Origin: Escherichia coli
GTDB lineage: Bacteria > Pseudomonadota > Gammaproteobacteria > Enterobacterales > Enterobacteriaceae
Assembly (NCBI RefSeq): GCF_024502345.1
Contig: NZ_JALDNN010000001.1
Direction: 5' to 3' (one strand)
DNA length: 64,000 bases
The notes under the pieces are model-generated. The model searched no databases. It was not told the origin of the DNA and saw only the letters and a list, made by a program, of their open reading frames with translations. The position numbers and the translations under genes are program-made. The stretch's first letter is position 1. The number at the start of each line of letters is the position of its first letter. Of this stretch, positions 1,910 through 4,179 are shown one piece after another.

Positions 1910-4179
1910 GTAGAGTAAGAGGCAGGGCGTAGTCGGACTATTTCCCTGCCTCTCCTCCCCGAACCGGACGTGCACCTTTCAGCGCATCCGGCTCTCCATT
2001 TAAATGCTGGCGAACGCCATTGCCACTTCTGTAAAGCGCGATGTATACGTGTTTCTGGTCTCCGTCCTCAGATAGGGATTACCTTCGGGTAGCCGCCAGC
2101 GGAACAGCTTCTTGCCTTGCCCCACCAACCGGTACAGTATTTCGCCGCTGAGCTTGCCGTGATTGGTTTTACCAAATAAAACCCACGTTTTGCTCTGACC
2201 CGGTTTCGGTGATTTACACCACCACCTCATCAGGGAAGCGATACCTGTACGGTATTTGCGGGCCAGCCAGTGAGCCAGCTTCCAGAACACGACACGGTCG
2301 ATATAACTGAAGACTTTGGCCTTAAAATCAACGAACTGATAGAACATAGCCCAGCCTTTCAGTTTTCGGTTGAGTTGTTCAGCCATATCGACTTTGCTTT
2401 CACTGTAGTTGCCTGATAACAGTGCTGTCAGCGATGCGGCGAAGTTTCTGGCTTTCTCCTGCGGGATCGTTGAGACCACTCGCATCTCGCCATAACGACT
2501 GCGTTTGCGAATGATCCTGTGCCCCAGAAAGATAAAGCCGTCATTAACATGGGTGATTTTAGTCTTATCCATGTTCAGCCTGAGTTTCAGACTGCCTTCG
2601 AGCACACCCCGACACTCCTCCCTGATGGCTTCCGCCTGTGCTTTGGTGCCTTTGACGATGAGGACAAAATCATCGGCATAGCGGCAGTACGCCACCGCGG
2701 GTTTCCACTGCCAGTTTTCTCTGACCGCCGTACTTCGGCCCCGTTGGATACTGTTATTCCAGTACCACCGATCTTTTCTGGCTTTCCCGCTCAGGTAGCG
2801 CTCATGCAGGTATTGATCGAACTCATTCAGCATGATGTTCGATAATAGCGGCGATATAACACCGCCCTGTGGCACACCTTCACTGGCCGCCCGAAAGAGA
2901 CCGACATCGATATGTCCCGCCTTGATGGTTTTCCACAGCAGAGTCATGAAACGTGCGTCACTGATCCTGCGGCGTACAGCCTTCATCAGCAGTCGATGAT
3001 GTACGGTGTCGAAGTAACTGGACAGGTCGCCTTCAATCACCCAGCGTCCCCGGGTTTCACCACAGTCTGTGAGCTGTAATTTCACCGTGCGGATCGCGTG
3101 GTGGACACTGCGCTCAGGCCGGAAGCCATATGAGAGCGTATGAAAATCACTCTCCCATATCGGCTCCATCGCCATCAGCATGGCCCGCTGAACAATACGA
3201 TCCCGCAACGCGGGGATACCCAGTGGTCGCAGTTTGCCGTTGCTTTTAGGGATGTAAACCCGTCTGGCGGGCAAGGGCTGGTAGTGGCCTGAGAGTAATT
3301 CATCCCTGAGGATTTGCAGCTCAACAGCCAGTCTGGCCTGTAGCATTGTTTTGTTCACGCCATCAACGCCGGGGGTATGGGCCCCCTTTGATGAAAGCGT
3401 GATCCGCGCCGCTTCAGCCAGCCATTCTGGTTGTGTTATCAGACGCAGCAGCCGTTGAATCCGTAGGGACGGATCGGTGGCTGCCCATGTGGCAAGCTTG
3501 CGTTGCATTTCGCTGATTATCAAAGGTCTTCACCTCGTTAGGTCAGTTAATTCACGTCGCAAACACATTCAAACTGCTTCCCTTCGCCATGTAATGGGCT
3601 TTCCCCATCGCGGACTACTACGGAAGCTCCGCCAGCCAGCGCGTCATCGGAGCCATGCCCCCTTAACATCCGTCGCTGACCTTCCCCGGTTTACCTGCCT
3701 GGACTCAGGCATACTGAGGAGGCTGCCCGTCGCACTCTTTATCCTTGCTTGCCGCAAGTTGGCAGAAGTCAGCAACGCAAGCGTGATAGACGCTGCTGCC
3801 CCGGTGTTTCGCATACATGTCAAAACACCTTCGACCGGCAGTGCTTACGTATCACTGCCAGTTCCTCCTGCACGGCCTGTCAGATCACGTAGGCCGTGGT
3901 GACGTTTTCAACCCACAGAGGCGGATTAACGGGTTCATGTTCTTCAGCCTTTCAGTACTTAACCTTGAGGATCATCTCGGCTTAGTGATCTCGCCTCAAT
4001 CCCCGTTGTCAGCGGGTTACATCACCCTGCGGGCATGCCGCAGGTCACTGCCGCTCAGGTTCTCCACCGTCACACCCGGTGGGATTGTTGGGTTTCTCAT
4101 CGTGAGTTACCGGTTCAATATTCCAGACAGACTCGCGGTTCATTTAAGCATCCATGCCCGCCCTGAACTCCGGGCACAC
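1910..4179 (-). mobile_element. Group II intron (about 2.27 kb) inserted in the IS3-family orfB
   Basis: 5' end GTGTG (revcomp of 4175..4179); domain V-like GAGCCGGATGCGCTGAAAGGTGCACGTCCGGTTC just 3' of the maturase ORF; 3' end ...AC at 1911..1910. Joining the flanks restores orfB as [20 protein letters not shown]. Confidence 0.85.
2000..3523 (-). CDS. Group II intron-encoded reverse transcriptase/maturase
   Basis: 507-aa ORF with RT motifs (…LRPLGIPALRDRIVQ…, YADDFVLIV) and a C-terminal maturase/X domain; lies in intron domain IV. Confidence 0.9.
   Translation of the reverse strand: MIISEMQRKLATWAATDPSLRIQRLLRLITQPEWLAEAARITLSSKGAHTPGVDGVNKTMLQARLAVELQILRDELLSGHYQPLPARRVYIPKSNGKLRPLGIPALRDRIVQRAMLMAMEPIWESDFHTLSYGFRPERSVHHAIRTVKLQLTDCGETRGRWVIEGDLSSYFDTVHHRLLMKAVRRRISDARFMTLLWKTIKAGHIDVGLFRAASEGVPQGGVISPLLSNIMLNEFDQYLHERYLSGKARKDRWYWNNSIQRGRSTAVRENWQWKPAVAYCRYADDFVLIVKGTKAQAEAIREECRGVLEGSLKLRLNMDKTKITHVNDGFIFLGHRIIRKRSRYGEMRVVSTIPQEKARNFAASLTALLSGNYSESKVDMAEQLNRKLKGWAMFYQFVDFKAKVFSYIDRVVFWKLAHWLARKYRTGIASLMRWWCKSPKPGQSKTWVLFGKTNHGKLSGEILYRLVGQGKKLFRWRLPEGNPYLRTETRNTYTSRFTEVAMAFASI

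What the first reader, a model, noticed from the sequence alone, without database searches (positions are those of the whole stretch)
1910..4179. Group II intron boundaries mapped to the nucleotide
5' GTGTG and 3' …AC ends, a domain V-like hairpin and a 507-aa RT/maturase. Exon ligation restores the orfB codons acc-tac-a|tc-agg-act-cac-gaa (TYIRTHE). The intron may still be splicing-competent and mobile.
Basis: seen in the sequence. Interest (0 to 1): 0.45.

Follow-up and report, generated by a model that had tools for sequence, protein, structure and literature searches.

The report
Known E. coli group II intron E.c.I4

Summary
On the minus strand, window 4179 to 1910 is a 2270-nt group II intron (5' GUGUG, 3' CUAC).

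Five independent lines fix the ends:
- the Rfam domain V/VI match ends at 1910;
- uninterrupted copies of the host IS equal the joined exons with no gap;
- copies at 7 different target sites become identical exactly at GTGTG and stop at CTAC;
- relatives with 69-86% protein identity share the same ends;
- EBS1/IBS1 and EBS2/IBS2 pairings abut the 5' splice site and covary in relatives.

The RNA has covariation-supported domains I-III, V and VI, with a bulged branch A at 1916. The reverse transcriptase/maturase ORF is intact and has YADD. It is 507 aa from TTG; RefSeq annotates 502 aa from ATG. It has no endonuclease domain.

The element is E.c.I4 (bacterial class A), which is known to home into IS3-family transposase genes. 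Matches occur in 2668 of 5426 complete E. coli genomes, mostly at 99% identity or more. K-12 ykfC is a truncated copy.

Competence for splicing and mobility is plausible from the sequence but untested. This host IS is also split by IS30 432 nt upstream. Splicing could therefore not restore a working transposase, and transcription of this copy is unknown.

Already known; low interest.

The parts
1910..4179 (-). Complete group II intron (E.c.I4, bacterial class A), 2270 nt, 5' GUGUG ... CUAC 3'
   Evidence: An uninterrupted IS equals the joined exons. Junction alignments at 7 target sites. Relatives share the same ends.
4180..4185 (-). IBS1, exon positions -6..-1, 5'-CCUACA-3'
   Evidence: Pairs 5 of 6 with EBS1 UGUAUG.
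4186..4192 (-). IBS2, exon positions -13..-7, 5'-GACAUAA-3'. The GAC is the codon of the Asp in the conserved WvtDiTY motif.
   Evidence: Pairs 4 of 7 with EBS2 AAACGUC. G-13, A-12 and U-9 are invariant across target sites.
3685..4174 (-). Domain I (intron nt 6-495)
   Evidence: RNAalifold on 9 introns gives a closing helix and internal helices with compensatory changes.
3901..3907 (-). EBS2, 5'-AAACGUC-3' (intron nt 273-279)
   Evidence: Complementary to exon -13..-7 in all 10 introns compared (4-7 of 7). It is 7 of 7 at the non-IS bcsB site.
3812..3817 (-). EBS1, 5'-UGUAUG-3' (intron nt 363-368), in the loop of a hairpin spanning nt 351-377
   Evidence: The loop covaries with exon -6..-1 in relatives: L010 ACCAUU/AAUGGU 6 of 6, L022 CGAAUG/CGUUCG 6 of 6. 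The stems differ in sequence but all fold.
3631..3684 (-). Domain II (intron nt 496-549)
   Evidence: Helix 22/23; 7 of its 14 pairs show compensatory changes.
3576..3627 (-). Domain III (intron nt 553-604)
   Evidence: Helices 24-26; 7 of 15 pairs show compensatory changes.
2000..3523 (-). Intron-encoded reverse transcriptase/maturase within domain IV. 507 aa from TTG 3523, or 502 aa from ATG 3508 as in RefSeq. YADD lies at 2680-2669. No endonuclease domain.
1961..1994 (-). Domain V, a 34-nt hairpin with the AGC triad, a 2-nt bulge and a GAAA loop
   Evidence: Rfam RF00029 plus two plastid D5 models. One pair is GC/UA/CG across relatives.
1912..1958 (-). Domain VI, with the unpaired branch-point A at window 1916 (7th nt from the 3' end)
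   Evidence: RNAalifold: 7 DVI pairs with compensatory changes and one invariant unpaired A.
1425..6146 (-). Host IS3-family insertion sequence, about 1230 bp without its two inserts. Terminal inverted repeats TGAATCGCCACGG. orfA fragment 5745-6089; orfB split by the intron.
4612..5832 (+). IS30 (1221 bp, transposase 4674-5825) inserted near the end of the host IS's orfA, 432 nt upstream of the intron, with a 2-bp GC target duplication

Best explanation
Window 4179..1910 (minus strand) is an intact copy of E.c.I4, a bacterial class A group II intron. It sits at its normal homing site in an IS3-family transposase gene, one base after the Tyr codon of the conserved WvtDiTY motif.

Shown here:
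- the exact ends;
- a six-domain ribozyme layout, with covariation support for domains I-III, V and VI;
- the branch-point A at 1916;
- EBS1 (UGUAUG) and EBS2 (AAACGUC) pairing with the 13 exon bases next to the 5' splice site;
- an uninterrupted RT/maturase ORF with YADD and no endonuclease domain;
- near-identity to thousands of copies at several different target sites.

Inferred from established group II intron biology:
- After transcription through the exon, the maturase helps the RNA fold.
- The 2'-OH of the branch A attacks the 5' splice site, the exons are ligated and a lariat-protein particle is released.
- The particle finds new DNA sites by EBS/IBS base pairing and reverse-splices into them.
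- Because the protein has no endonuclease, cDNA synthesis is probably primed by a nascent strand at a replication fork, as shown for the En-minus intron RmInt1.

In this copy, splicing cannot rescue the host transposase because IS30 has also split that IS.
For: - Ends and exons.
- Covariance model for DV/DVI, 64.9 bits, E 2.2e-11, ending at 1910.
- Protein: TIGR04416 340.9 bits (cut-off 300), RVT_1 and GIIM.
- Abundance: 2668 of 5426 complete E. coli genomes have a match, 2720 records at 99% or more, up to 20 places per genome.
- Empty site: the joined exons align without a gap to uninterrupted IS copies, and 705 genomes cover at least 80% of the probe.
- Seven different target sites (five IS3-family variants, K-12 IS911A, and bcsB): identity begins at GTGTG and ends at CTAC, with +1 T invariant.
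- Relatives from a Legionella plasmid, Photobacterium and metagenomes: 2260-2288 nt, same ends, most in IS3-family orfB at the same codon phase.
- EBS/IBS pairing and covariation.
- Structure: 151 pairs, 80 with compensatory changes, 95.8% of cells paired, 0 of 500 shuffles as high, slid controls 13-20. DV/DVI.
- The ORF is identical to WP_001189111.1 and the intron is 0-4 nt different from copies elsewhere.
- Identity as E.c.I4: K-12 ykfC covers intron nt 1-1764 with 4 differences. PMC3522654 lists an E.c.I4 fragment in MG1655 and gives IS629, IS911, ISEc16 and ISEc31 as targets. Class A, En-minus: PMC3552965, PMC4244168.
- Replication-fork priming for an En-minus intron: PMC8914252.
Against: - No experiment here shows splicing or mobility of this copy.
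- EBS/IBS pairing at this site is 9 of 13, tied with one other site (L007) as the weakest of the seven E.c.I4 sites compared. There is a mismatch at -5 in IBS1, and only 4 of 7 pair in IBS2.
- IS30 lies 432 nt upstream in the opposite orientation, between the IS's own promoter region and the intron.
- The promoter scan found no site in the 432-nt exon stretch, and no more sites overall than in shuffles (3 found, 4.6 expected).
- I could not compare directly with the catalogued E.c.I4 sequence, because the database and the two 2002 Dai and Zimmerly papers are not held. The name therefore rests on published properties and on the K-12 fragment.
- One relative (L018) fits the assigned EBS1 poorly, 3 of 6.
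Confidence: 0.93

Rival explanations
1. The intron sequence is intact, but this copy is a silent passenger. It is not transcribed through its 5' exon, or is too poorly paired with it, so it neither splices nor moves from this locus. It persists only because the surrounding IS composite is carried along.
For: - IS30 splits the host IS 432 nt upstream, in the opposite orientation.
- No promoter-like site lies between IS30 and the intron.
- IBS2 pairs at only 4 of 7 and IBS1 has a -5 mismatch.
- The same IS::IS30::intron unit of about 4.7 kb recurs at 96-99% identity at other loci, so the intron can spread passively.
Against: - The sequence is identical to copies at unrelated sites.
- The other natural E.c.I4 sites also score 5 of 6 (six sites) or 4 of 6 (bcsB) for IBS1, apart from ISEc31 at 6 of 6.
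- The truncated K-12 copy, also downstream of an IS30 insertion, carries an annotated small RNA (eyeA) inside domain I. This suggests the region can be transcribed.
- Read-through from the IS promoter-like site at 6131-6103(-) is not excluded.
Confidence: 0.3
2. A decaying intron relic whose ribozyme or protein is already inactivated by point mutations.
For: Such copies exist. L007 (98.5% identity) has an internal stop in ltrA. K-12 ykfC is truncated by IS5. PMC3522654 reports inactivated E.c.I4 copies.
Against: - The window copy has 0 differences from the pXJW9B263-1 copy and 1-4 from other full-length copies.
- Its protein equals the most widely annotated WP_001189111.1, with no stops.
- DV, DVI, the branch A, EBS1 and EBS2 are all as in the other copies.
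Confidence: 0.04
3. A different kind of bacterial reverse transcriptase element, such as a retron or a defence-associated RT, rather than a group II intron.
For: Weak partial hits to retron and Drt models (54-18 bits) over the RT core.
Against: - All those hits fall far below their cut-offs (200-600 bits), while TIGR04416 passes at 340.9 against 300.
- Domains V/VI, the GIIM domain, precise excision-type empty sites and EBS/IBS pairing are all present.
Confidence: 0.01

Closest known systems
E.c.I4 (Escherichia coli group II intron 4; bacterial class A). S.f.I1 of Shigella flexneri is about 99% identical.
   Same: - Inserted at a fixed position in IS3-family transposase genes; the literature lists IS629, IS911, ISEc16 and ISEc31 (PMC3522654). 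One copy fetched here is annotated ISEc31, and K-12 carries it in IS911A.
- RT plus maturase with no D/En region (PMC3552965).
- Multi-copy, with under 1% divergence (PMC3522654).
- The MG1655 fragment reported in the literature corresponds to ykfC, which matches intron nt 1-1764 with 4 differences.
   Different: Nothing in the intron itself differs. This copy lies in an IS3-family element (name not determined) that is also interrupted by IS30.
RmInt1 (Sinorhizobium meliloti, bacterial class D)
   Same: An En-minus RT/maturase. It homes into an insertion sequence (ISRm2011-2). Target recognition is by EBS/IBS pairing. It serves as the model for replication-fork-primed retrohoming (PMC8914252, PMC1802570).
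   Different: Different phylogenetic class, different host IS family target and different C-terminal region. The mechanism is transferred by analogy and was not tested for E.c.I4 here.
Ll.LtrB (Lactococcus lactis, class ML / IIA)
   Same: The same overall pathway: maturase-assisted lariat splicing followed by reverse splicing into DNA. RefSeq reuses its gene name, ltrA, for this ORF.
   Different: Ll.LtrB's protein has DNA-binding and HNH endonuclease domains and primes cDNA synthesis by cutting the bottom strand. The protein here has neither domain.

Membership tests
Group II intron | 5' end GUGYG and 3' end AY | tested here: met
   GUGUG at 4179-4175(-) and ...CUAC ending at 1910. The same ends occur in 10 relatives.
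Group II intron | Domain V hairpin of about 34 nt with the catalytic AGC triad, a 2-nt bulge and a GNRA loop | tested here: met
   Rfam RF00029 64.9 bits against a gathering score of 40, E 2.2e-11. Compensatory pair GC/UA/CG.
Group II intron | Domain VI with a bulged branch-point A 7-8 nt from the 3' splice site | tested here: met
   An invariant unpaired A at alignment column 82, which is window 1916, 7th from the 3' end. The flanking helix has 7 compensatory pairs.
Group II intron | Multi-domain ribozyme (DI-DIII) conserved in structure | tested here: met
   151 pairs, 80 with changes on both sides, 95.8% of cells paired. 0 of 500 shuffles reached this, and slid controls gave 13-20. No Rfam D1-D4 family matched, so the domain naming is mine.
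Group II intron | EBS1-IBS1 and EBS2-IBS2 pairing with the 5' exon | tested here: met
   In the window, 5 of 6 and 4 of 7. Covariation in L010 and L022, both 6 of 6 with different sequences. L018 is an exception at 3 of 6.
Group II intron | Intron-encoded protein in domain IV with RT and maturase (X) domains | tested here: met
   RVT_1 1.5e-34, GIIM 1.3e-10, TIGR04416 340.9 bits against a cut-off of 300. YADD present.
Group II intron | Splicing with lariat formation and retrohoming | not testable with these tools
   Indirect evidence only: empty sites, several target sites including the non-IS gene bcsB, and up to 20 places per genome.
E.c.I4 / bacterial class A | Sequence identity with the catalogued E.c.I4 | tested here: inconclusive
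   The catalogue entry is not available here. Indirect support is strong: the MG1655 'E.c.I4 fragment' of PMC3522654 corresponds to ykfC, which is 99.8% identical to intron nt 1-1764.
E.c.I4 / bacterial class A | Homing site at a fixed position in IS3-family transposase genes | tested here: met
   Six IS3-family sites, all at the same codon phase, one base after the TAY codon of the D.TY motif. An ISEc31 annotation and IS911A in K-12.
E.c.I4 / bacterial class A | IEP lacks recognizable DNA-binding/endonuclease (D/En) domains | tested here: met
   No HNH or other domain after GIIM (aa 361-426 of 507) at E up to 0.01. Stated for class A in PMC3552965.
Retron / defence RTs (St85, Ec67, Drt2, Drt3a) | Whole-protein score above the NCBIfam cut-off | tested here: not met
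   18-54 bits against cut-offs of 200-600.

The most novel reading that the evidence does not exclude
The intron itself is known, so the least ordinary readings left open concern its surroundings and its lineage.

(a) The unit of about 4.7 kb formed by the IS3-family element, IS30 and E.c.I4 keeps intact terminal inverted repeats. It may be mobilised as a whole by transposase supplied in trans from intact sister ISs, carrying the intron between replicons. It occurs at four or more different loci, and one plasmid copy has a 3-bp target duplication.

(b) Class A, described in the literature as three nearly identical members, may really be a broad gammaproteobacterial lineage. Its conserved EBS2 3'-GUC would keep it locked onto the GAY codon of the Asp in the conserved WvtDiTY motif of IS3-family transposases.
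Probability: 0.35. Interest if true: 0.3.

Novelty: already known. Interest (0 to 1): 0.12.

Why it matters
It matters little for discovery. E.c.I4 has been catalogued since 2002, and RefSeq already annotates its ltrA gene in thousands of genomes.

The result is useful for annotation of this window:
- The two 'IS3 family transposase' pseudogene halves and the RT gene form one nested mobile-element stack: an IS, plus IS30, plus the intron.
- The intron ends, the branch point and the EBS/IBS elements are now placed to the nucleotide.
- K-12's ykfC, and the annotated small RNA eyeA, are explained as remnants of the same intron.

Tried and rejected
- Single-sequence MFE folding of the 5' 650 nt was uninformative (z = -2.2, frequency about 0). 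I replaced it with comparative folding.
- I first considered the loop CGUAAG (intron nt 331-336, hairpin H1) as EBS1, because it pairs perfectly with the CUUACG site. I rejected it because in relatives the next hairpin's loop covaries with exon -6..-1 (L010, L022). L018 alone fits H1 better, and this remains unexplained.
- Delta-delta' versus EBS3-IBS3 could not be decided. Exon +1 is T in all but one case, and the base 5' of EBS1 is A in almost all introns.
- Rfam D1-D4 families: no match at E up to 1.
- The promoter/terminator scan found no more sites than in shuffles, so it gives no evidence either way on transcription.
- The two Dai and Zimmerly 2002 papers are not held, and one look-up failed on a term that was too short.
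- The look-up of encoding contigs had no record for P0013 and P0051.
- I looked for a target-site duplication around the host IS in the window and found none (CTG against AGA). One of three other copies of the composite has one.
- There is no second copy of the intron or the host IS in the window.
- A replication-strand bias test for En-minus priming was not attempted, because origin and terminus positions for the records were not available.
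Full report
**What is in the sequence**

Read on the minus strand, window 4179 to 1910 begins GUGUGCCCGG and ends ...CUCUUACUCUAC. 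The upstream exon ends ...GGGTAACGGACATAACCTACA (4180). The downstream exon starts TCAGGACTCACGAAGG (1909). Joining them gives one open frame...[41 protein letters not shown]..., which is a continuous IS3-family OrfB. The upstream half carries HTH_21 and the downstream half carries rve, rve_2 and rve_3. Both halves match NF033516, the IS3-family transposase model.

Rfam's group II intron model (RF00029, domains V and VI) matches 1996..1910(-) over its full length. The score is 64.9 bits against a gathering score of 40, with E 2.2e-11, and the match ends on the last base of the proposed intron.

The ORF 2000-3523(-) is 507 aa from a TTG. It matches RVT_1 (1.5e-34), GIIM (1.3e-10) and the equivalog TIGR04416 'group II intron reverse transcriptase/maturase' (340.9 bits, cut-off 300). 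Retron and Drt models score far below their cut-offs.

**Are the ends exact?**

Five independent lines agree.

1. Empty sites. A 217-nt probe made of the joined exons matches uninterrupted IS3-family elements, covering at least 80% of the probe in 705 complete E. coli genomes at about 98% identity. The alignment to one of them has no gap at the junction. The base before the intron (A) differs from the last intron base (C), and the first intron base (G) differs from the first exon-2 base (T). The ends therefore cannot slide by even one position.

2. Many target sites. I fetched copies lying in five different IS3-family variants, in K-12's IS911A and in the non-IS gene bcsB. The flanks are unrelated or only distantly related. 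Identity starts exactly at GTGTG and stops exactly at CTAC, and exon +1 is always T.

3. Distant homologs. I compared introns whose proteins are 69-86% identical, from a Legionella pneumophila plasmid, Photobacterium damselae and several metagenomes.
   - They are 2260-2288 nt long.
   - They start GUGYG and end CUAC, CCAC, CAAC or CCAU at the aligned positions.
   - Most sit in IS3-family orfB at the same codon phase, one base after the Tyr codon of D-x-T-Y.

4. Exon-binding sites next to the 5' splice site (see below).

5. The covariance-model match ends at 1910.

**Ribozyme anatomy**

RNAalifold was run on the window plus eight non-redundant relatives for the 5' 655 nt. It gives 151 pairs, and 80 of them have compensatory changes. 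On the same alignment:
- 95.8% of cells are paired;
- none of 500 column shuffles reaches the observed values;
- sliding the partners by 1-3 columns drops compensatory pairs to 13-20.

The structure was derived from this same alignment, which inflates the contrast, but the margin is large.

| Feature | Intron nt | Window coordinates (minus strand) |
|---|---|---|
| Domain I | 6-495 | 4174-3685 |
| Domain II | 496-549 | 3684-3631 |
| Domain III | 553-604 | 3627-3576 |
| Domain IV (holds the ORF) | about 605-2182 | about 3575-1998 |
| Domain V | 2186-2219 | 1994-1961 |
| Domain VI | 2222-2268 | 1958-1912 |

Coordinates for domains I-III come, and those for domains V and VI are converted from the alignment.

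Domain V has one pair that is GC, UA or CG across relatives. Domain VI has seven pairs with compensatory changes. It also has a single invariant unpaired A, the 7th base from the 3' end (window 1916), which is the expected branch point. No Rfam D1-D4 family matched, so the class A 5' domains are not represented in Rfam.

**Exon-binding sites**

The loop of a hairpin at intron nt 351-377 contains 5'-UGUAUG-3' (nt 363-368, window 3817-3812). In relatives the same loop position changes together with exon positions -6..-1:
- L010: ACCAUU with AAUGGU, 6 of 6.
- L022: CGAAUG with CGUUCG, 6 of 6.
- L012 and L014: UGUAGG with CCUAUA, 6 of 6.

The hairpin stems also differ in sequence yet still fold. 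This loop is therefore EBS1.

A conserved AAAYGUC (E.c.I4 AAACGUC, nt 273-279, window 3907-3901) is complementary to exon -13..-7 in every intron (4-7 of 7). Its 3' GUC pairs with the GAY codon of the Asp in the conserved WvtDiTY motif of the transposase. This is EBS2.

| E.c.I4 site | IBS1 pairs (of 6) | IBS2 pairs (of 7) |
|---|---|---|
| Window | 5 (U x C at -5) | 4 |
| Other IS sites | 5-6 | 4-5 |
| bcsB (non-IS) | 4 | 7 |

The window site is at the weak end of the natural range but within it.

One relative (L018) fits the EBS1 assignment badly (3 of 6), while its neighbouring hairpin loop would pair 6 of 6. I cannot explain this. Whether exon +1 pairs by delta-delta' or by EBS3 could not be decided.

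**The protein**

The ORF is uninterrupted and carries YADD (window 2680-2669). It is identical to WP_001189111.1, the protein annotated on copies in other replicons. After the maturase domain (aa 361-426) about 80 residues remain, with no HNH or other domain hit. This agrees with the published description of class A as lacking D/En (PMC3552965).

RefSeq starts the gene at the ATG at 3508 (502 aa). The TTG at 3523 (507 aa) lies about 7 nt after a GAGGUG Shine-Dalgarno-like motif, which favours TTG on spacing. The motif, the TTG and the ATG are all conserved in the relatives, so the start stays ambiguous.

**Identity**

The intron has matches in 2668 of 5426 complete E. coli genomes. It is 99% or more identical in 2720 records, lies on both chromosomes and plasmids, and reaches up to 20 places per genome. 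The window copy has 0 differences from a copy on plasmid pXJW9B263-1 and 1-4 from other full-length copies.

K-12 MG1655 carries intron nt 1-1764, with 4 differences. There it is annotated as ykfC, is cut by IS5A and lies downstream of IS911A.

The literature describes exactly this element as E.c.I4:
- It homes at a specific position in IS3-like transposases (IS629, IS911, ISEc16, ISEc31).
- It shows recent independent proliferations, with under 1% divergence.
- A fragment is listed in MG1655, W3110, DH10B and BW2952 (PMC3522654).
- It is bacterial class A and En-minus (PMC3552965, PMC4244168).

I could not open the two Dai and Zimmerly 2002 papers or the intron database. The name therefore rests on these matching properties and not on a direct sequence comparison.

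**How it most likely works**

The shown parts are the anatomy above.

The inferred parts come from established group II intron biology. After transcription through the exon, the maturase helps the RNA fold. The branch A at 1916 attacks the 5' splice site, the exons are ligated and a lariat-protein particle is released. The particle recognises DNA by EBS2, EBS1 and the +1 pairing, and reverse-splices into it. Without an endonuclease, cDNA synthesis is probably primed by nascent strands at replication forks, as in RmInt1 (PMC8914252).

Natural mobility of E.c.I4 is supported indirectly. There are several distinct IS targets, an ectopic bcsB insertion in the sense orientation with perfect EBS2 pairing, and multi-copy genomes.

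**Caveats for this copy**

The host IS spans 1425-6146, has inverted repeats TGAATCGCCACGG, and is about 1230 bp without its inserts. It is also split by IS30 (4612-5832, 2-bp GC duplication), which sits near the end of orfA, 432 nt upstream of the intron and in the opposite orientation.

Splicing therefore cannot restore a working OrfAB transposase. Transcription into the intron would need either read-through across antisense IS30 from the IS's promoter-like site (6131-6103, minus strand) or an unknown start. The consensus scan gives no evidence either way. I put the chance that the intron sequence is intrinsically competent at about 0.75. The chance that this particular copy is actually expressed and splicing is lower, at about 0.5.

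**Verdict**

Novelty: already known. Interest: low.

Noticed in passing
window 1425-6146; L024, L025, L026: The whole nested unit of about 4.7 kb (IS3-family element, plus IS30, plus E.c.I4) recurs at 96-99% identity in other E. coli chromosomes and plasmids. The match ends exactly at the IS termini, and the flanks differ: a prophage lysis region, a site next to qatD, and a 304-kb plasmid. The plasmid copy has a 3-bp GCT target duplication. The window copy and two others have none. The composite may move as a unit with transposase supplied in trans, or it may spread by recombination between IS copies.
   Followed up: partly
window 4612-5832 versus L003 (MG1655) 8542-9762: IS30 is inserted near the end of orfA in two different IS3-family elements. 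In the window's IS it lies 314 nt from the IS end (after ...ILKKAA). In K-12 IS911A it lies 335 nt from the end (after ...ILKKA), in the opposite relative orientation. This may be an IS30 hot spot in a conserved stretch.
   Followed up: no
L003 10581-10655 (MG1655 272580-272654), equivalent to window 3790-3716 (minus strand): The K-12 'small RNA EyeA' (b4690) maps to nt 390-464 of the truncated E.c.I4 copy, inside domain I. It is probably a stable fragment of intron RNA and not an independent sRNA gene.
   Followed up: partly
proteins P0004-P0120; loci L010-L023: The literature describes class A as three nearly identical members and remarks on its paucity (PMC4244168, PMC7306698). The protein search nevertheless returned more than 100 clusters at 68-92% identity over the full length. 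Sources include Enterobacter, Rahnella, Microbulbifer, Endozoicomonas, Legionella, Photobacterium and metagenomes. Most of the loci I fetched are also in IS3-family orfB at the same codon phase.
   Followed up: partly
L008 (E. coli ABWA45 chromosome) 401-2670: An E.c.I4 copy, 1 nt different from the window's, is inserted in the sense orientation in the cellulose-synthesis gene bcsB. This is an ectopic, non-IS site with 7 of 7 EBS2 pairing and 4 of 6 EBS1 pairing.
   Followed up: partly
L018 (metagenome contig Ga0451644_000088) around 526-900: In this relative the assigned EBS1 loop pairs only 3 of 6 with its 5' exon. The loop of the preceding hairpin (UGUAGC) would pair 6 of 6. This is unexplained.
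   Followed up: no
window 3525-3535 (minus strand) and relatives: The Shine-Dalgarno-like GAGGUG before the IEP start sits in a small invariant hairpin (AGGU-GAAG-ACCU). The following roughly 30 nt are conserved at every position across relatives. This resembles a domain IVa protein-binding and translational-control site.
   Followed up: no
window 6444-6896 (+) and 6854-7030 (-): Just beyond the IS there is a fragment resembling an IS256/Mutator-type transposase. It overlaps an ORF on the opposite strand that resembles the start of a type VI secretion sheath protein (TssB-like). Both calls are from reading the translations only.
   Followed up: no
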